A stretch of 64,000 nt of DNA from a virus. This document shows positions 7,501 through 43,837 of this stretch, piece after piece (positions within the stretch are counted from its first letter, which is position 1; the number at the start of each line of letters is the position of its first letter). Below the pieces are notes generated by a model. The model searched no databases. It was not told the DNA's origin and worked only from the letters and a program-made list of their open reading frames with translations. The stretch lies in IMG/VR virus record IMGVR_UViG_3300047510_002509. One strand, written 5' to 3'. The position numbers and the translations under genes were made by a program.

Positions 7501-10500
7501 ACGTAATAAGTTGTTCCCTCTACTAAAGGAGATGGAGCAGTTCCTGAACCAGCAGAGAACACTACTGCATCAGCTGTAGCAAAAGTATTGCTCTTTGTGA
7601 TTAAGTTTGTTCCAGTGTTAACATCAGCTGCTTCAAACACGAGGGTTCCGTGTTGTTTAGTTGTGTTTGCTGGGAATAAGCGGAATCTGTCTCCAACTTT
7701 CAAAATCTTCGAGAAAGCTGTACCAGTACCGTTAACAAGAACAGAGCCTGAAACAACAGATACTGTTCCAGAACCTGTTACGTTACCGTTAATCTGGTCT
7801 GTGATTAGTTTGTGACCTACACCAGTACCCCAGTCAGTAACACTGAGAGTAATACCTGCTGCAGCATTTTCTGCAGATGTTGCGAGCTTTAAGTAGTCTC
7901 TGTTAATAGCTACAACATAGTATTGTGTGTTATTTATTAATCCACCAATATCTGTAGCAGAATCTCCCTGTTCGTATGTAACCTCAGTACCAGTTGTGAA
8001 ACCATGAGACGGCAAGAAGAAGGTGTCGGCTTCAAGGTTTACAGTAGATCTTGGGTTAAATACTTTAGTAATAATTGGAACGTTACCAGCTGCTTCTACA
8101 GTAAATGTGGTTGCAGACGGTGTAGATGTGATGGTGTAAATTCCATCTGGAGTCTTGCTTAGTGAGCGTAGAGTATGACGACCAACGCCAAGTGGGGTAT
8201 CAGTGAGATCTACAGCAGTTCCAGCATCTGCTTCTTCTGGTGTAGTAGCAAGTTTAATGTTGTCACCATCTATGAAAATTACATAGTAAGGAGTAGCAGT
8301 AGTTAGCCCATCTACAGCTGTCTGACCCTTGCTGTCATATTCAACCAACTCTCCTTGCAGGAACCCATGGCCTGGCAAAGTTATAGTGTTAGTTGCGTAA
8401 TCAAGAGAAGTAATAAATAAGGAGTGGGTTCCAGTAGCAGGCCACGGTTCTTGACTTGTTATATTTGCAATAACAGTAAGAGCTTTATTCGTAGCAAGTC
8501 TAACAATGCTATTGTCAACCTTAACAATGTAATAAGTAGTGTTATCAGTCAAACCAGGAATAACAGTGTTGGCTTCCAAACCTTTGGAGTAGCGCACTGC
8601 CTGACCAGATACAAGACCGTGGTTAGGGATGTAGAGAGTGTCTTCCAGTGCATTAACAGTTAGGAAGATAAAGCTGTGACCCGTACCAGTTCCAGCACCT
8701 GTAAAGTTGATAAATGTTGGAGAATTAAGAGAAGACTTCAAACGAATCTGGTTAGCATTTAAAACCTCAGCGACATAGTAAGTGGCTTGGTCAATAAGAG
8801 GAGTAATTGCAGTTCCATCACCAACGCTATAACGAAGAGGCTGGTCAACCAAAAATCCATGGTTACTAATAGTCAAAGTATCTGTTGCAGTATTTACAAC
8901 AACTCGACTGATCTTAGAGGTAGTAGAAACTTCTCTAGAAGATGGTGAAATTAAATTGATGTTTGTAAAGCTAGGAGAAGGGGTTGTACTCAAACGATAG
9001 CTAAATGCATCAATAGTGTTTACATAATAAATACCATTGTTTTGAATTCCAGTTGGTGGAACCCCATTAAACGACACTTGGATTGCCTCACCATTATTTA
9101 ATGTATGTAAGGCAGCACTATGAATTGCATCGTTTTGAATATCAAGATTAATTGGTACAAATGAGTGATATGAAGAACCAGCTGGCTCTATTGCAATAGC
9201 ATTAGTTCCATTTTCAGCATCTTGAGCAGTTGGGTGCACGCTGTTACCAGTAGTAAAGCTAGAAACCAAAGTTACTGCAACTTGTCCTTCACCAGTGTGA
9301 TATGCATTTAGATTTGCAATAAGGGTTCCATTGAATGTGTTGGCACCATCAAAAAATCCTGTAGAAGTTTTAACGTTTGCGGCTGTAGCCACAACGAATG
9401 AACCACCACCACCACCAGAATGGTTAGCAGTTGTAGAGCGAGCTCCACCACCACCTGAGTAGCCACCGCCACCACCAGACTGACCAGTTACGTTTCCGTC
9501 TGACTGACCACCGCCACCAAAACCACCATAACCACCAACAAGAGTGTTAGTGCCCATTGTCAAACCATCAAGGAACGAACCACCACCAAGTGTTGTTGTG
9601 TTACCAAATCCACCGTTTTGTCCGCGAGAGAAGAAACCTCCACCAGCAGCAGAACGACCAAATGGGTTAGTAGAACGACCACCAAAACCTGCTTGACCAC
9701 CAGCTGGTTGATTATTAGTAGATGTACCGCCTAATTGAGTAAGAACAGCATCTCGTCCAGCACCAACGTTAGACTCACCAGAACCTCCACCAGCAACAAA
9801 TAAAGGCTCATTACCAGTTTTACGAACAACAAATGTTCCACCACCAGAGCCGCCCCAAGTAGTTCCAGAAGAGGGCGCAGCTCCTTGCTGACCAACGGCA
9901 ATTGTAATTACTTCACCCTTAGTTAGTGCAATTTCACCTTCAACAATTGCGCCTCTACCTATACCGCCAGAACCAGCGCCATTGTAGCCTGATGCACCTC
10001 TAACATTAAATCTGTAAATACCAGAAACTGGAACTGTCCAGTCTTGGTAACCAACAAAAGCACCTTGAACTAGATATGTCTCATCCCAAGTGGTGCTGTA
10101 TGAAGCACGCATTTCCTGTTGGGTAGGGCCAACTCTTCCTGTTTTTCCGCATGTTGTAAATGTGTGGCTGGTAAATGCATAAAGAGCCTGAGAACCCGCG
10201 AACTCAGAAATAGAGACGTTCTTTAAGAAGTATGTGTCTCCACTTGTAAGCCCTGTGATTGGGGTTCCGTTTGTGTAATACTTAACCGCTTGGTTTGTAG
10301 GAGTTGATGCGTCTATGTTTAGTTTATTAGAGAAAACAATTGGTGTATTAAATTTAATAGAGCCAGCCACGCTGTCAGTAAAATCGAGTGCAGTTCCATT
10401 AAAAGTTGTGCTAAATTTTAATTTTTTAGGTTCAGTAGTTGTAACGTAAACAAGACCATTTTCTGTAAAACCTGTTACAGAACCAACACCAGAGGTGTAT

Positions 10501-34749: not shown

Positions 34750-34942
34750 TGCCCTCTTTTTTCAAACTAATTATTGCTTGGTCTAGTCTGTCGTTTGGAC
34801 AATTCCTTACAGACTCTTCGTATGTATTACCGCAATCTCCACACTTCCAAGTCATCTCTGCAATAGCGTCGTAGTGTCCTACGACATATCCTTTGTCATA
34901 ACCTATGTCATAACCTTCCTGATAAAGATTTTTCTTTCTCAT
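34736..34942 (-). CDS. Hypothetical protein
   Basis: ORF track; CGDC..C motif; overlaps neighbouring genes in operon fashion. Confidence 0.6.
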   Translation of the reverse strand: MRKKNLYQEGYDIGYDKGYVVGHYDAIAEMTWKCGDCGNTYEESVRNCPNDRLDQAIISLKKEGIGYE

Positions 34943-35676
34943 TAAGGAGATACTCTTCCGTTATCTACAAAAGCTTTGTGAGTTACTGGCATGTGATACT
35001 CAAAAATCTCTTCATACCTTTCAGCAACCATTTCAATCTCTCTTTGAGGATATGAAGGAAAGCTCTGACCTTCAACATTCCTACGGAGACTTAGGAAGTT
35101 CATCAAAGAGCGAGCATTCATGGTGACATAAGCAGAAGAATAAATTGTCACTGGGAGCACTCCTCGAGCGACTTCTCGAGCAACACCATTAGAAAGCATC
35201 TCTTTGTAGTTGTAGTACGCCTCTGTACATGTCTTTTTATAATTATTAACAGTTATTGCGTACTGCTGGTCAGTGCCTTCTTCAAAAACATAAGCACCTG
35301 GTTTGCCAACTTGAACTAGTTTTCTGTCCTGATTAGGGACATAGAACTCTGGTTCAAGCTCCCTATAACGCCCAGACTCTTCGTTGTAGGAAGCGATGCG
35401 ATGACGCATATGCTCGCGCCAGACAAAGATAGGTGCTTTGACGTAGAACGTGAAATATGAATGCTCAAATGGAGTGCCATGACGCTCTCTCATCAAGAAG
35501 TTAATCAGGCCTTGTTCTCTTTTAGATAACTCATTAGTTTCATCAAAAGAGGCTGTGTAGTCTCGAGTTCTTTCTCCCTCGGTGCTTACTCGAGCGGAAA
35601 AGATGACATCCATGTCTTCAGCACTACATTTAACAAGTTCTACGTCAACATCAGAACTGAACAGAATTTCAGACAA
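34942..35676 (-). CDS. thyX: FAD-dependent thymidylate synthase
   Basis: HGTPFEH, RHRIASYNEESGRY, EVARGVLP, NARSLMNFLSLR. Confidence 0.95.
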   Translation of the reverse strand: MSEILFSSDVDVELVKCSAEDMDVIFSARVSTEGERTRDYTASFDETNELSKREQGLINFLMRERHGTPFEHSYFTFYVKAPIFVWREHMRHRIASYNEESGRYRELEPEFYVPNQDRKLVQVGKPGAYVFEEGTDQQYAITVNNYKKTCTEAYYNYKEMLSNGVAREVARGVLPVTIYSSAYVTMNARSLMNFLSLRRNVEGQSFPSYPQREIEMVAERYEEIFEYHMPVTHKAFVDNGRVSP

Positions 35677-35685
35677 AAGACTCTC

Positions 35686-35919
35686 CTAGTCCACTGGCTT
35701 TAGATGATTTGGCTTTGGCTCTTCCTTCTTTTTTGTCTTAACTGAATCCCTAGATTCAACGTTTGCCTTGGCTCTAGCAAAAGCTTGAAAGAAGGTCTTA
35801 ACAAGTGCATAGAGCACCAGAAGGCAGAATCCAACAATTAACACGACTATCAATGAACCGATCAAAAACAGACCTAGTTCAAATGCCAGTTCGAATGGAG
35901 CTTTCCAATTGATATCCAT
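35686..35919 (-). CDS. Small membrane protein
   Basis: Long hydrophobic helix; SD AAAGG. Confidence 0.6.
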   Translation of the reverse strand: MDINWKAPFELAFELGLFLIGSLIVVLIVGFCLLVLYALVKTFFQAFARAKANVESRDSVKTKKKEEPKPNHLKPVD

Positions 35920-35933
35920 AACTTACCTTTCTA

Positions 35934-36425
35934 TTAGCCTTTAGGTCTCATGACCACAAGGGCGCTGGGGAAGGGGGCTGCGTTGGTGGAATTACCAAAC
36001 TTCAGCCGTCCACGAATAAAACGAACTTCGTGGTGTATTGCATAGTCGTGAAACCAAGCAGTGTCAGTTCTTGCTGGCACTAGGCACACAACCGTGGCTC
36101 CTTTTTGAGATTCAGCGTCAGCCTTTCTCATCCAGTCCTTGATGGTCTTGCCATAAGGAGGATTGAGCCAAATAGCACCACCCTGAGCATCGGTAGTCCA
36201 GTCGCGTGTAAAAGCGTCTTGTCTATTCGTCTCTGGGTGGTCTGGTCCATACCAGTTGCCTACAACCAAAGTAGAAGACTGCAGGGCTGCTGCATCCAAA
36301 GCAAAGTTAAACTCTGCATCTACCTTGGCGTAATAACTTCTTGGCGTAGACCAAGTGTCATCAAGCGATGACATCGCTGTTGAGCTTGAATAAAAGCCCG
36401 TGCTCTTCTCGTAAGGTTCTACCAC
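35934..36425 (-). CDS. Phage Dam-family N6-adenine DNA methyltransferase
   Basis: W.TP, LDAAA, WLNPPYG, PARTDT, GRLKF; start moved to GTG 36425 because TATGAT lies 6 nt upstream. Confidence 0.88.
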   Translation of the reverse strand: MVEPYEKSTGFYSSSTAMSSLDDTWSTPRSYYAKVDAEFNFALDAAALQSSTLVVGNWYGPDHPETNRQDAFTRDWTTDAQGGAIWLNPPYGKTIKDWMRKADAESQKGATVVCLVPARTDTAWFHDYAIHHEVRFIRGRLKFGNSTNAAPFPSALVVMRPKG

Positions 36426-36498
36426 GCTGATATCATATAGTAACTTAATTCTAAATTGCAACACCCAAAACAGGCGTTTCTAAAAGGTATGATAAAGT

Positions 36499-36669
36499 TC
36501 AGGCCGTACGAACTCGCCCTTTTAGGACGTGCCAAGCGTTGCATTTATCGCATCCGTGTAAGAAATAGCTCTCTGGACGCCCTTTTTTGGTTTCCGAGTA
36601 GTTTTTCATCTGGACAAACCTACTAGCCAACTCTCGATTGGCAAAACCCTTTTTAACGCAAGTTGCCAT
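36499..36669 (-). CDS. Small hypothetical protein (56 aa, C..C..WH Zn-like)
   Basis: The ATG at 36669 directly follows the repeated GGGAGCCCGGAAA motif; MATCVKKGF... Confidence 0.65.
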   Translation of the reverse strand: MATCVKKGFANRELASRFVQMKNYSETKKGRPESYFLHGCDKCNAWHVLKGRVRTA

Positions 36670-36690
36670 TTTCCGGGCTCCCATTCCGTT
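36669..36690 (-). repeat. 22-bp dispersed motif, copy 1
   Basis: AACGGAATGGGAGCCCGGAAAA between a TAA and an ATG. Confidence 0.85.
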
Positions 36691-36826
36691 ATTTGAATCT
36701 GCGTCGAACATCGTTAGTGATAAGTCTGCCTTGGAACGTAGATAAGCGAGTAATAACCTTACTGATGAGGTCGATTAAATGACCCCTCCATGTCTGGGTC
36801 TTTTTGTGTCGTGACGTAGTTCTCAT
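36689..36826 (-). CDS. Small basic hypothetical protein (45 aa)
   Basis: Manual translation MRTTSRHKKTQTWRGH...RRRFK; bounded by two copies of the 22-bp motif. Confidence 0.55.
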   Translation of the reverse strand: MRTTSRHKKTQTWRGHLIDLISKVITRLSTFQGRLITNDVRRRFK

Positions 36827-36960
36827 TTTTCCGGGCTCCCGTTCCGTTCTGAGACCTTTGCGCAGTTGATGCAGATGTCGTAGTCCTTACCAGTGAAGGG
36901 ACAGGAGGACTGGGTGGTGAGTTGATGCTTACAGAAAAGTTGTTTGAGGAGATTAAGCAT
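36823..36960 (-). CDS. Small Cys/His protein (45 aa)
   Basis: Manual translation MLNLLKQLFCKH...CPFTG...CINC...; its TGA overlaps the next ATG. Confidence 0.6.
   Translation of the reverse strand: MLNLLKQLFCKHQLTTQSSCPFTGKDYDICINCAKVSERNGSPEK
36827..36848 (-). repeat. 22-bp dispersed motif, copy 2
   Basis: AACGGAACGGGAGCCCGGAAAA directly before ATG 36826. Confidence 0.85.
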
Positions 36961-37207
36961 CTACTTCCTCCAGTTCGGCTGTGAAGTCGGTGATTTCAAG
37001 GACATGGGTGGTTTCTCTGAGTTTAGGCTTGTCTCCATGCATGAAAGCCATATGCATGGATGAGCCTACCTCTGGGTAAGTCATATCTGTGCACTCAATC
37101 CATTGGAAAGCAGGGGCAATCGTATTCGGAGTGTCCTTGCCTATCTTGAGGAACCGCTTTGGGTAATCAACCAGATACACGCTGGTTTCGGTGCGAACTG
37201 TCAACAT
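36953..37207 (-). CDS. Hypothetical protein
   Basis: ORF track; own leaderless promoter. Confidence 0.7.
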   Translation of the reverse strand: MLTVRTETSVYLVDYPKRFLKIGKDTPNTIAPAFQWIECTDMTYPEVGSSMHMAFMHGDKPKLRETTHVLEITDFTAELEEVDA

Positions 37208-37213
37208 AATAAA

Positions 37214-37242
37214 AGACTAAGGGTTAACAGTTGCTGTGTCAA
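37214..37242 (-). promoter_or_regulatory. Sigma70-type leaderless promoter
   Basis: TTGACA-17 nt-TAGTCT-6 nt-ATG(37207). Confidence 0.8.
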
Positions 37243-37249
37243 ATACAAT

Positions 37250-37565
37250 AAAAAGGGGTTGGGGTGAAAACCTAGTACTCGCTTTCGCTTTCCCACCTGC
37301 GCTGCCCCAAGGCGTTACTCAGGTCGTCCCAAGCTTTCGCTCTGCAGGTTGGTTCTGTGGACTCTGCAGTAAAGGGTCTTAAAAGTGAGTAGGTGGACTG
37401 CTTTTTACCACCAAGGCCAAGCTATTACGGCTCTGTAGTACCGCTTTTAGGCCTACCAGACGTTCGGTCGCTAACCACTCTGCTAAGAGCCGCCTGTGCT
37501 TTACCCTCCCCATATAGCTTTGAGAGTGTTCAGCCATACTCCACGCAGCCCGTCGGCTTTGTGTT
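37250..37565 (-). ncRNA. Candidate large structured RNA: expanded tRNA-like domain (37544-37385) plus a second GAAA-capped domain (37380-37267)
   Basis: GC-rich gap with no credible ORF; -10 TAGGAT (37577-37572) not followed by a start codon; many manually paired helices; tRNA-like D arm, anticodon stem, T stem and acceptor pairing. Confidence 0.65.
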
Positions 37566-37624
37566 GAAAAAATCCTAACACATAAATCAGACATTTTGCT
37601 AACTTTATTTAGCAAAAATCCCAA

Positions 37625-37646
37625 TTTTCCGGGCTCCCATTCCCTT
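37625..37646 (-). repeat. 22-bp dispersed motif, copy 3
   Basis: AAGGGAATGGGAGCCCGGAAAA in the divergent intergenic region upstream of the candidate ncRNA. Confidence 0.8.
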
Positions 37647-37674
37647 TTTCTCCAAAGCAGCGTAGAGTAGGGGT

Positions 37675-37983
37675 ATGGAACTAAAAGAGTTTGTGATTAG
37701 GGATGAGGGTTGGGCTACCGACCTACAACAAGGGCTAGAGATGTACATGATGGCTCTATATGACTCTGTGGACGCTGAGGAGGGTACTCCTGAAGCTGAA
37801 ATAGAAACCGAAAGCGGTTTAATCTTCTGTGGGTGCCACACATGTGAAGCAAGAGAAATTCTAAGCTTTATCGTGCCACGAGCCATTAAAGGCTACTTAG
37901 ATGAAAAAGTTGGATTTGAAGATGCACCAGAGGGGTTTGTAGGTAAATTGGCTAAAGTGCCAAGCAACCTAAAACACGATTAA
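37675..37983 (+). CDS. Hypothetical protein (CGCHTC motif)
   Basis: ORF track; leaderless TAGAGT-6 nt-ATG. Confidence 0.7.
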   Translation: MELKEFVIRDEGWATDLQQGLEMYMMALYDSVDAEEGTPEAEIETESGLIFCGCHTCEAREILSFIVPRAIKGYLDEKVGFEDAPEGFVGKLAKVPSNLKHD

Positions 37984-38384
37984 GCAGCTTTTGATCTACG
38001 CTCTTTCAACAAATCAAAGTCTTTAATCTTGGTTTCACCCATGTAATCCCAAGCATAACCACCTGCAATAAGAGCATGGTTGACTGACTGTTCCGCATCA
38101 TCGAGGAACAACCAGCCAAGAATACGACCATACTTTTCAGTTGAGTCTGGCTTCTCAGTTTTAATAACAATCTTTTCGGCGCTCGCAAGAAGTTCGCCTA
38201 GCTTTTTCTTGACCTCAAGACCTAGTTGCTTTTCGTAAGCATCTTTAGTGCGAGACTCTGGGGTATCAATACCAGCAAGTCTTACTCGTTGAAAAAAGCT
38301 GACGTTAAAGCCCAAATCAATGTCGACATCTATTGTGTCCCCATCTACTACTTTATGAACTTTTTTAACTCGATAGGTATACAA
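37980..38384 (-). CDS. Thermonuclease (SNase) family protein
   Basis: VVDGDTID, RVRLAGIDTPE, KYGRILG. Confidence 0.9.
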   Translation of the reverse strand: MYTYRVKKVHKVVDGDTIDVDIDLGFNVSFFQRVRLAGIDTPESRTKDAYEKQLGLEVKKKLGELLASAEKIVIKTEKPDSTEKYGRILGWLFLDDAEQSVNHALIAGGYAWDYMGETKIKDFDLLKERRSKAA

Positions 38385-38963
38385 CTACTTAATGTCCTGT
38401 CCGCAAGCGTGGCAGACTTTCTTTTCTACTGTTGTTGCAGGAGCATCTGCCTTTACCCCAGCACCTTTAAATTTAGGGCGACCAAACCCAACGATTGAGA
38501 CCATTACTCCAGCCTTGTTCTTCTTATAAGCACGAAGCTGCTTGCAAACTTCTCCACCATTTCTTTGGCTTCCGCCCTTGCGATTTGTAGTGTTTCCTTC
38601 AATACACCAAACGGTCCCATCTTCATTGTCTTTAATAACAATTCCAACGTGACTAATGCGATCAACACCATCTGCCGGGAAATCAAAATAGGCAATATCT
38701 CCTGGCTCTGGGTCACAAATTTGTGCGTCATACCAACGATTAACTTTTTTAAATGCTGCTGCACCACTTGGAGTGTAAACAGTGTTAGGAATTTTTACTC
38801 CTGCTTGGTCTCCACACCAATTAACAAATGAACCGCACCATGGTTGAAAGTTAGCTCCAGACCACTTGCCATACTTTGTTTCGTTGTCTTTTGGACCTTC
38901 AATGGTTCCAAGCTCTGCTTTTGCAATCTCAATAAGACGAGCCGCTGTACCTTGCTCTGCCAT
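38385..38963 (-). CDS. CHAP-domain endolysin
   Basis: PWCGSFV, HVGIV, IEGNT. Confidence 0.88.
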   Translation of the reverse strand: MAEQGTAARLIEIAKAELGTIEGPKDNETKYGKWSGANFQPWCGSFVNWCGDQAGVKIPNTVYTPSGAAAFKKVNRWYDAQICDPEPGDIAYFDFPADGVDRISHVGIVIKDNEDGTVWCIEGNTTNRKGGSQRNGGEVCKQLRAYKKNKAGVMVSIVGFGRPKFKGAGVKADAPATTVEKKVCHACGQDIK

Positions 38964-42576: not shown

Positions 42577-42598
42577 TTTTCCGGGCTCCCTTTCCGTT
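42577..42598 (-). repeat. 22-bp dispersed motif, copy 4
   Basis: AACGGAAAGGGAGCCCGGAAAA between a TAA and GTG 42576. Confidence 0.85.
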
Positions 42599-43815: not shown

Positions 43816-43837
43816 TTTTCCGGGCTCTCTTTCCGTT
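43816..43837 (-). repeat. 22-bp dispersed motif, copy 5
   Basis: AACGGAAAGAGAGCCCGGAAAA overlapping the -35 position of the leaderless promoter for 43790. Confidence 0.8.

What the first reader, a model, noticed from the sequence alone, without database searches (positions are those of the whole stretch)
37250..37565. Unannotated ~310-nt RNA whose 5' domain is a tRNA scaffold with large insertions
Seen (minus strand): a -10 box TAGGAT (37577-37572) is not followed by a start codon, unlike more than 12 other promoters here. The transcript opens with a hairpin AGCC-GACG-GGCU. Positions 37544-37385 map onto a cloverleaf: acceptor GUGGAGUA/UACUCAC (one bulge); U8-G9; D arm GCUGAA...GGUAAAGC with a hairpin (CUCUCA..UGGGGAG) inserted before the GG; anticodon stem CAGGC/GCUUG whose loop is replaced by a ~70-nt branched insert (GGCUCU/AGAGCC, CAGA/UCUG, GUAG/CUAC); a 5-nt variable loop; and T stem GGUGG/CCACC with an atypical 11-nt loop (UAAAAAGCAGU). 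No anticodon or CCA is encoded. Known: tmRNA and bacterial Y RNAs are tRNA mimics, but this RNA lacks the tmRNA termini and tag ORF and has an open acceptor end, unlike YrlA. Inference: a possibly new phage tRNA-mimic ncRNA, for example a decoy for anticodon nucleases or a ribosome/synthetase ligand.
Basis: partly seen in the sequence, partly recalled or inferred. Interest (0 to 1): 0.9.

Follow-up and report, generated by a model that had tools for sequence, protein, structure and literature searches.

The report
Phage manA RNA plus uncatalogued neighbour
The flagged stretch is two separate folded RNAs of a virus of actinobacteria: a divergent copy of the known manA RNA (recently reported to build RNA cages), which really is built on a tRNA skeleton, followed by an uncatalogued ~120-base knotted RNA that related phages keep among their tRNA genes.

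Summary
The ~310 nt are two genes, not one RNA.

(1) 37561-37382 (-) matches Rfam manA (RF01745) end to end: E 3e-11, 52.6 bits against a cut-off of 55.2. Relatives 63-78% identical pass the cut-off. The real layout is class II tRNA-like (37496-91/37462-57 stem plus a long variable arm), with a covarying L3-P8 kissing contact like one reported in cage-forming manA structures. It has its own promoter and is not a 5' UTR.

(2) 37379-37260 is an independent pseudoknotted RNA with no Rfam or literature match. It has 24 distinct copies in phage contigs, mostly in tRNA/tmRNA clusters; 22 end in encoded NCCA, but this copy does not. Complete genomes carry either RNA without the other.

The two RNAs and their promoter form a 366-bp protein-free cassette that is absent from the closest relative. 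No transcript data were available, and function is inferred. The scan has already met manA variants and the tRNA skeleton on other DNA, and probably RNA 2 once.

The parts
37255..37620 (-). 366-bp protein-free cassette (promoter + manA + RNA 2); an indel relative to the closest relative
   Evidence: L200 aligns on both flanks and lacks exactly 37620-37255; L074-L077 also lack it at the syntenic site
37572..37580 (-). Extended -10 promoter TG-t-TAGGAT; probable start near 37565 (AACA)
   Evidence: Sequence; a TAnnnT hexamer lies at similar spacing before AACA in 12 of 19 homologues, and the other 7 follow a tRNA or tRNA-like gene (read by eye). Start site inferred
37382..37561 (-). manA RNA (RF01745), divergent actinophage subtype on a class II tRNA skeleton
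   Evidence: cmscan model 1-192, 52.6 bits, E 3.2e-11; covariation
37544..37561 (-). manA P1: 5' hairpin with GACG loop
   Evidence: 7/7 pairs with double changes
37387..37541 (-). manA P2, acceptor-like 5-bp helix 37541-37537/37391-37387, followed by A-C (37386-85) like the discriminator+C ends of these phages' tRNAs
   Evidence: 98% paired, almost invariant, no double change; AC in 14/19; most tRNAs in related loci encode only N-C
37498..37534 (-). manA P3a, D-stem equivalent 37534-32/37500-498, with inserted hairpin P3b 37527-37503 whose loop L3 carries the kissing strand 37518-37514
   Evidence: Pair 12-23 takes five pair types and is always paired; P3b 6/6 pairs with double changes
37457..37496 (-). 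manA P4, anticodon-stem equivalent 37496-91/37462-57, capped by two UUAGC-type hairpins (37490-37477, 37476-37466) in place of an anticodon loop
   Evidence: 99% paired, 6/6 double changes
37414..37454 (-). manA P8, long variable-arm equivalent; its 3' internal-loop strand 37425-37421 pairs with L3
   Evidence: Stem 100% paired; L3-P8 helix 93% paired, 5/5 double changes
37392..37412 (-). manA P9, T-arm equivalent with 11-nt loop (U54 and A58 kept, no UUC)
   Evidence: 100% paired, 4/5 double changes
37260..37379 (-). RNA 2: independent, uncatalogued pseudoknotted RNA. P1 37376-74/37330-28; P2 37369-64/37347-42; P3 37341-32; variable hairpins P4 37324-37295 and P5 37289-81; loop pairings 37354-51/37272-69 (covaries) and 37361-59/37294-92 (invariant, unproven); conserved AGUACUA 37279-73; tail UCACCCCA here, NCCA in most relatives
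   Evidence: 23-sequence alignment, 98% of cells paired, 13 pairs with double changes; no Rfam match to E=10; model R1 90 bits
37214..37242 (-). Separate promoter (TTGACA-17-TAGTCT) 6 nt before the ATG of the 84-aa ORF 37207-36953; outside the cassette
   Evidence: Sequence; a TTGACA promoter is also present at this site in L200, which lacks the RNAs

Best explanation
A mobile, self-promoted cassette encodes two independent small RNAs that related actinophages keep in their tRNA/tmRNA clusters. RNA 1 is a manA RNA: a remodelled class II (Ser/Leu/Tyr-type) tRNA that kept the tRNA core contacts (8-14, 15-48, 26-44, 54-58) but lost decoding, because two hairpins replace the anticodon loop and the elbow (G18G19/UUC) is rebuilt. 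It is a free-standing RNA, not a riboswitch. It most likely self-associates through the L3-P8 kissing helix into closed ring oligomers, as solved manA RNAs do, and so displays several tRNA-shaped bodies, probably as a decoy or scaffold for host tRNA-handling proteins during infection. RNA 2 is a compact pseudoknotted RNA whose 3' strand closes a 4-5 bp helix followed by N-C-C-A in most copies, so it is most likely a tRNA-end mimic, released from the array by host tRNA processing. Shown by computation: manA identity (~0.93), the fold, two separable genes (~0.9), non-coding nature. Inferred: transcription and processing (~0.8), oligomers (~0.6), decoy/scaffold role (~0.3), acceptor mimicry by RNA 2 (~0.4).
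For: Full-length manA match. Homologues score above the cut-off at 67, 61, 56, 55.5 bits, and 72.9 in cultured Rhodococcus phage Francesca, between tRNA-Met and tRNA-Lys. Covariation of all arms and of the kissing helix, 0/500 shuffles. tRNA hallmark bases invariant. A terminator-like hairpin directly follows manA in 13/19 homologues (by eye), and the downstream ORF has its own promoter. An intermolecular L3-L8' contact and 8-, 10- and 60-mers are reported for manA (10.64898/2026.07.01.735769). Complete genomes: G004 has manA only; G005, G019, G021, G030 have RNA 2 only; G024 and G032 carry both, 44 and 90 kb apart; in L007 the order is reversed. RNA 2 encodes NCCA in 22/24 copies while only about 2 of 31 nearby tRNAs encode CCA. 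A downstream tRNA starts 0-1 nt after that CCA in L040, L042, L044, L050, L056. No reading frame is kept across homologues.
Against: The window copy is 2.6 bits under the Rfam cut-off and has a 3-way, not the usual 4-way, P4 junction. No L5-L7 complementarity is evident, so the second interface needed for pentamers is not identified. L3-P8 could be intramolecular. The window's RNA 2 lacks the immediate NCCA. RNA 2 covariation rests on few independent changes (P1: 3 of 23 sequences). Its CCA could instead pair internally with a conserved UGG. Homologues were collected with sequence patterns, which inflates conservation of the patterned segments.
Confidence: 0.6

Rival explanations
1. [quoted passage not shown]
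For: Invariant core with swappable peripheral hairpins and nested loop pairings. It starts within about 7 nt of a tRNA, tmRNA, tRNA-like or manA 3' end in about 11 of 23 loci. UCC/GGG and CUA-before-3'-helix loosely recall HDV L3/P1.1 and J4/2 (my own knowledge). Theta ribozymes sit at tRNA 3' ends (PMC10879173).
Against: Helix order differs from HDV: the strand that pairs with the 3' end lies inside the loop, and hairpins interrupt P1-P1.1. No match to any Rfam ribozyme. Several copies follow protein ORFs instead. Conserved NCCA is not explained.
Confidence: 0.15
2. The whole 310 nt is one new tRNA-mimic RNA, for example a decoy for anticodon nucleases.
For: One promoter, a 4-5 nt spacer and no terminator between the halves; both lie in one indel.
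Against: The halves occur apart and in reverse order in other genomes; the 5' half is manA; no anticodon loop.
Confidence: 0.07
3. manA here is a cis-regulatory element or riboswitch for the downstream gene, as Rfam classes the family.
For: Weinberg et al. 2010 list manA as a riboswitch candidate in 5' UTRs (PMC2864571); an ORF follows on the same strand.
Against: That ORF has its own promoter and exists without the RNA in L200. Most homologues end in a terminator or sit between tRNAs.
Confidence: 0.06
4. RNA 2 binds tRNA 3' ends in trans: its conserved GUGGG (or GGU) pairs with NCCA, T-box-like, and its own tail or UCCAC loop is the placeholder.
For: UGG is invariant and can pair with the RNA's own CCA in all 21 aligned rows counted. 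The loop repeats UCCAC and ACCA, which resemble tmRNA/tRNA-Ala ends.
Against: No covariation at all for this pairing; GU is also used to close P4.
Confidence: 0.12

Closest known systems
manA RNA motif (Rfam RF01745; PMC2864571; cryo-EM preprint 10.64898/2026.07.01.735769)
   Same: Full-length model match; P1 GACG hairpin, P2-P3a/b-P4-P8-P9 layout, 11-nt L9; an L3 contact with the P8 arm, apparently the I2 (L3-L8) type of A767/A28C (helix numbering inferred from legends; figures not available).
   Different: Actinophage host rather than cyanophage or Photobacterium; 3-way rather than 4-way P4 junction (6FAB also lacks the 4-way junction); own promoter and terminator rather than a 5' UTR. The tRNA skeleton is not mentioned in the preprint or its supplement (0 occurrences of 'tRNA').
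Class II tRNAs (Ser/Leu/Tyr; Rfam RF00005)
   Same: Order of arms, 3-bp D stem plus G13-A22, A26-G44, long variable arm, A15-U48, G53-C61, U54-A58, N-C 3' end.
   Different: 5-bp acceptor, hairpin in the D loop, no G18G19, no UUC, 11-nt T loop, no anticodon loop; not called by ARAGORN or RF00005.
Pseudoknotted acceptor arms of plant-virus tRNA-like structures (TYMV type; from my own knowledge), for RNA 2
   Same: A loop-pairing helix directly followed by N-C-C-A.
   Different: Long-range rather than local H-type knot; no anticodon or T-arm analogue; no Rfam match; the window copy lacks immediate CCA.
Theta (HDV-like) ribozymes (PMC10879173), for RNA 2
   Same: Small nested-pseudoknot RNA often placed just 3' of a phage tRNA.
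   Different: Different helix order, ~100-135 nt, conserved NCCA tail, no Rfam HDV-family match; cleavage untested.

Membership tests
manA (RF01745) | Significant end-to-end match to the covariance model | tested here: met
   Model 1-192, E 3.2e-11
manA (RF01745) | Score at or above the gathering cut-off (55.2 bits) | tested here: not met
   52.6 bits; homologues 63-78% identical score 55.5-72.9, so it is filed as a divergent variant
manA (RF01745) | P1, P2, P3a/b, P4, P8, P9 helices supported by covariation | tested here: met
   40 of 51 pairs with double changes, 0/500 shuffles; P2 is invariant rather than covarying
manA (RF01745) | Four-way junction P4-P5-P6-P7 (majority of the family) | tested here: not met
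   Two hairpins only; solved member 6FAB also lacks it
manA (RF01745) | Kissing contact I2 (L3-L8 or L8-L9) | tested here: met
   L3 with the P8 internal loop, 5/5 double changes; inter- or intramolecular not determined
manA (RF01745) | Kissing contact I1 (L5-L7) | tested here: inconclusive
   Both loops read UUAGC(G/A); no clear complementarity seen by eye in alignment A2
manA (RF01745) | Self-assembly into pentamer-based oligomers | not testable with these tools
   Needs SEC or cryo-EM
manA (RF01745) | Location in a 5' UTR (Rfam type cis-reg) | tested here: not met
   Own promoter, terminators, tRNA-array copies
tRNA (RF00005) | Core hallmark bases and arm order | tested here: met
tRNA (RF00005) | 7-bp acceptor, 7-nt anticodon loop, UUC T loop, G18G19 | tested here: not met
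tmRNA (RF00023) | tRNA-Ala-like termini and tag ORF | tested here: not met
   No ARAGORN or Rfam call in the window or genome
Theta/HDV-like ribozyme (RNA 2) | HDV nested double-pseudoknot helix order | tested here: not met
   Covarying helices give another order; no Rfam match
Theta/HDV-like ribozyme (RNA 2) | Self-cleavage at the tRNA 3' end | not testable with these tools
   Needs an in vitro assay
TYMV-type tRNA-like acceptor (RNA 2) | Pseudoknot helix followed by NCCA | tested here: inconclusive
   Met in 22/24 copies, not in the window or L007; internal pairing of CCA not excluded
TYMV-type tRNA-like acceptor (RNA 2) | Aminoacylation or CCA addition | not testable with these tools
   Needs enzymes

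The most novel reading that the evidence does not exclude
RNA 2 (37379-37260) is the first member of a new functional RNA class of actinophages, either a ribozyme with an undescribed fold that processes tRNA arrays or a chargeable pseudoknotted tRNA-end mimic; and manA cages are multivalent tRNA decoys descended from a class II tRNA.
Probability: 0.25. Interest if true: 0.85.

Novelty: new variant of a known kind. Interest (0 to 1): 0.5.

Why it matters
manA has been an orphan riboswitch candidate since 2010 and was reported in a 2026 preprint to form RNA-only cages of unknown function. A tRNA skeleton, its own promoter and terminator, and a copy in a cultured phage (Rhodococcus phage Francesca, PP978770.1, about 76482-76664) make its function directly testable. 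RNA 2 adds a covariation-supported RNA family that is missing from Rfam and has the conservation pattern of a functional core.

Tried and rejected
- Single-sequence folding was uninformative: z -0.25 for the whole stretch and +0.36 for RNA 2; pseudoknots are not modelled.
- 5'-3' end pairing of RNA 2 (AGGCU/GGUCU) is 96% paired but has no double change, and it excludes two covarying helices. Not preferred, but an alternative state is not excluded.
- ORFs 37379-37624 and 37393-37578 rejected: no Pfam match, and indels and stops in homologues.
- The metagenome pattern scan returned only chance hits.
- Two GTDB scans found no RNA 2; exact patterns, so weak evidence of absence.
- blastn of cultured phages and plasmids found no RNA 2.
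- Resemblances of RNA 2 to group I P4-P6, RNase P, twister, TPP and hatchet were considered from memory and dropped: helix order does not fit and Rfam gives nothing.
- Literature and Weinberg 2010 supplement searches for RNA 2 words gave only chance hits (first 200 of 438 files). The Fremin 2023 list of 10,006 viral candidates could not be checked, so RNA 2 may be among them.
- The 84-aa ORF is not a partner: it exists without the RNAs.

Full report
Setting. The window lies in a 136,029-bp virus record with two WhiB genes, so the host is most likely an actinobacterium. It has no tRNA or tmRNA gene. The habitat was not checked.

Observation. Nothing matches 37380-37250.

RNA 1 homologues. Pattern scans of IMG/VR and a blastn lead gave 19 distinct homologues, 56-79% identical to the window copy. 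Five IMG/VR loci (four distinct sequences) pass the Rfam cut-off at 55.5-67 bits. A copy in the cultured Rhodococcus phage Francesca, unannotated between tRNA-Met and tRNA-Lys, scores 72.9.

RNA 1 fold. RNAalifold recovers a five-arm fold unaided. Counting a named structure gives 92% of cells paired and 40 of 51 pairs with double changes, beyond all 500 shuffles and all slid controls.

tRNA skeleton. The layout is that of a class II tRNA. Positions equivalent to U8, G10, C11, G13, A14, A15, A21, A22, G24, C25, A26, G44, U48, G53, U54, A58 and C61 are invariant. Only the 5' segment up to position 11 was part of the search pattern. The Rfam consensus and the solved member 6FAB show the same D-arm words. 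G18G19, the UUC of the T loop, the anticodon loop and two acceptor pairs are missing, so it cannot decode. The 3' end is acceptor-A-C in 14 of 19, like tRNAs of these phages, which mostly encode only discriminator plus one C. I found no paper that notes this skeleton. An earlier agent of this scan noted it on other DNA (e1-5360944); I had mapped it before reading that note and tested it here.

Not cis-regulatory. Weinberg et al. proposed manA as a riboswitch candidate (PMC2864571). Here 12 of 19 copies have a -10 hexamer just before the RNA and 7 follow a tRNA or tRNA-like gene; 13 end in a terminator-like hairpin (by eye). The downstream ORF has its own promoter. A 2026 preprint reports that manA RNAs form 8-, 10- and 60-mers from ring modules (mostly pentamers) held by kissing loops, including L3-L8' (10.64898/2026.07.01.735769). 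The covarying L3-P8 helix here is probably that interface. The second interface (L5-L7) is not evident, so oligomer formation is inferred, not shown.

RNA 2. The 3' 120 nt recur in 24 distinct copies. L007 is 112/120 identical to the window and carries it after tRNA-Trp and upstream of manA. Among records at least 90% complete, one has manA only, four have RNA 2 only, and three have both, two of them 44 and 90 kb apart. So it is a gene of its own.

RNA 2 fold. P1 closes a three-way junction with P2 and a GNRA-type hairpin. Two freely varying hairpins follow. The large P2 loop pairs with the 3' strand (RACC/GGUY, six double changes) and possibly with GGG (invariant, unproven). In all, 98% of cells pair and 13 pairs show double changes, but independent events are few. 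An end-to-end alternative has no covariation.

RNA 2 ends and context. Twenty-two of 24 copies end in N-C-C-A right after the 3' helix, while about 2 of 31 neighbouring tRNAs encode CCA. In five loci a tRNA begins 0-1 nt after that CCA, so RNase P cleavage would define the end (inference). The window and L007 copies keep N-C but not the immediate CCA. Rfam gives no match even at E=10 in a 291-nt search with flanking tRNAs as positive controls. No distant homologue, bacterial copy or paper was found. One published candidate list could not be checked.

Mobility. A close relative (L200) has the two flanking genes about 100 bp apart and lacks exactly 37620-37255. Four others also lack the RNAs at this site. 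The unit is thus a 366-bp protein-free cassette with its own promoter, placed right after one of the repeated GGGAGCCCGGAAAA elements. Gain in this phage or loss in its relatives is not resolved.

Mechanism. Most likely one transcript from about 37565 is cut at the U-rich spacer into two RNAs (inferred). manA folds on its tRNA core and oligomerises through L3-P8 (inferred, ~0.6), and may act as a multivalent tRNA-shaped decoy or scaffold (speculative, ~0.3). RNA 2 most likely mimics a tRNA acceptor end (~0.4); a ribozyme (~0.15) or a tRNA-end binder (~0.12) are the rivals. No expression data could be obtained.

Verdict. Real and structured. The flagged tRNA-like domain is a divergent member of a known family that this scan has met repeatedly; its neighbour is an uncatalogued RNA family. 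Novelty: new variant of a known kind. Interest 0.5.

Noticed in passing
window 37625-37638, 36827-36840, 36669-36682, 42577-42590, about 43816-43829 (- strand): Repeated GGGAGCCCGGAAAA element at gene-cassette boundaries. The RNA cassette starts a few bases after one copy, and relatives swap different genes in at the same sites, so it may be a recombination or expression module.
   Followed up: partly
L040:5371-5451 (+); L059:3869-3949 (-): 81-nt RNA with tmRNA-like 5' and 3' ends (G3-U70 acceptor, T arm) but no tag region: a tRNA-like-domain-only mini-tmRNA, not called by ARAGORN or Rfam at cut-off.
   Followed up: partly
L055:7425-7470 (+); L067:1592-1638 (+); similar in L031, L056, L057: 46-47 nt acceptor + T-arm minihelix with one extra hairpin, directly upstream of manA.
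   Followed up: partly
L044:286-358 (+); L067, L070; L072:12690-12773 (-): tRNA-like elements ending CAGUCCAC immediately 5' of RNA 2; not standard tRNAs.
   Followed up: partly
L055:7657-7695 (+); also L056, L057, L067: Conserved 39-nt hairpin element immediately 3' of manA in place of a terminator.
   Followed up: no
L027:7432-7599 and 7735-7966 (-): Two manA copies in one array, one enlarged to ~230 nt and one lacking the L3 insert features, separated by a tRNA with a CCCC anticodon call.
   Followed up: no
L049:1350-1532 (PP978770.1 about 76482-76664): Unannotated manA RNA (72.9 bits) in the cultured Rhodococcus phage Francesca tRNA array; other long unannotated spacers in that array (for example L049:320-462, 1608-1772) may also be RNAs.
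   Followed up: partly
L031 about 8780-9050 (-); L055, L057, L067 downstream of RNA 2: Further promoter-led, ORF-free conserved segments between RNA 2 and manA containing TAGGCACTCCCTAG-like words; possibly another ncRNA.
   Followed up: no
window 37273-37279 (-): The invariant AGUACU of RNA 2 is self-complementary (UAGUACUA or longer in L031, L050, L059, L065), so dimer formation is possible.
   Followed up: no
window 34942-38963: Neighbours: ThyX (Thy1), Dam-family methyltransferase, SNase-like nuclease and a CHAP-domain lysin; ordinary phage genes.
   Followed up: yes
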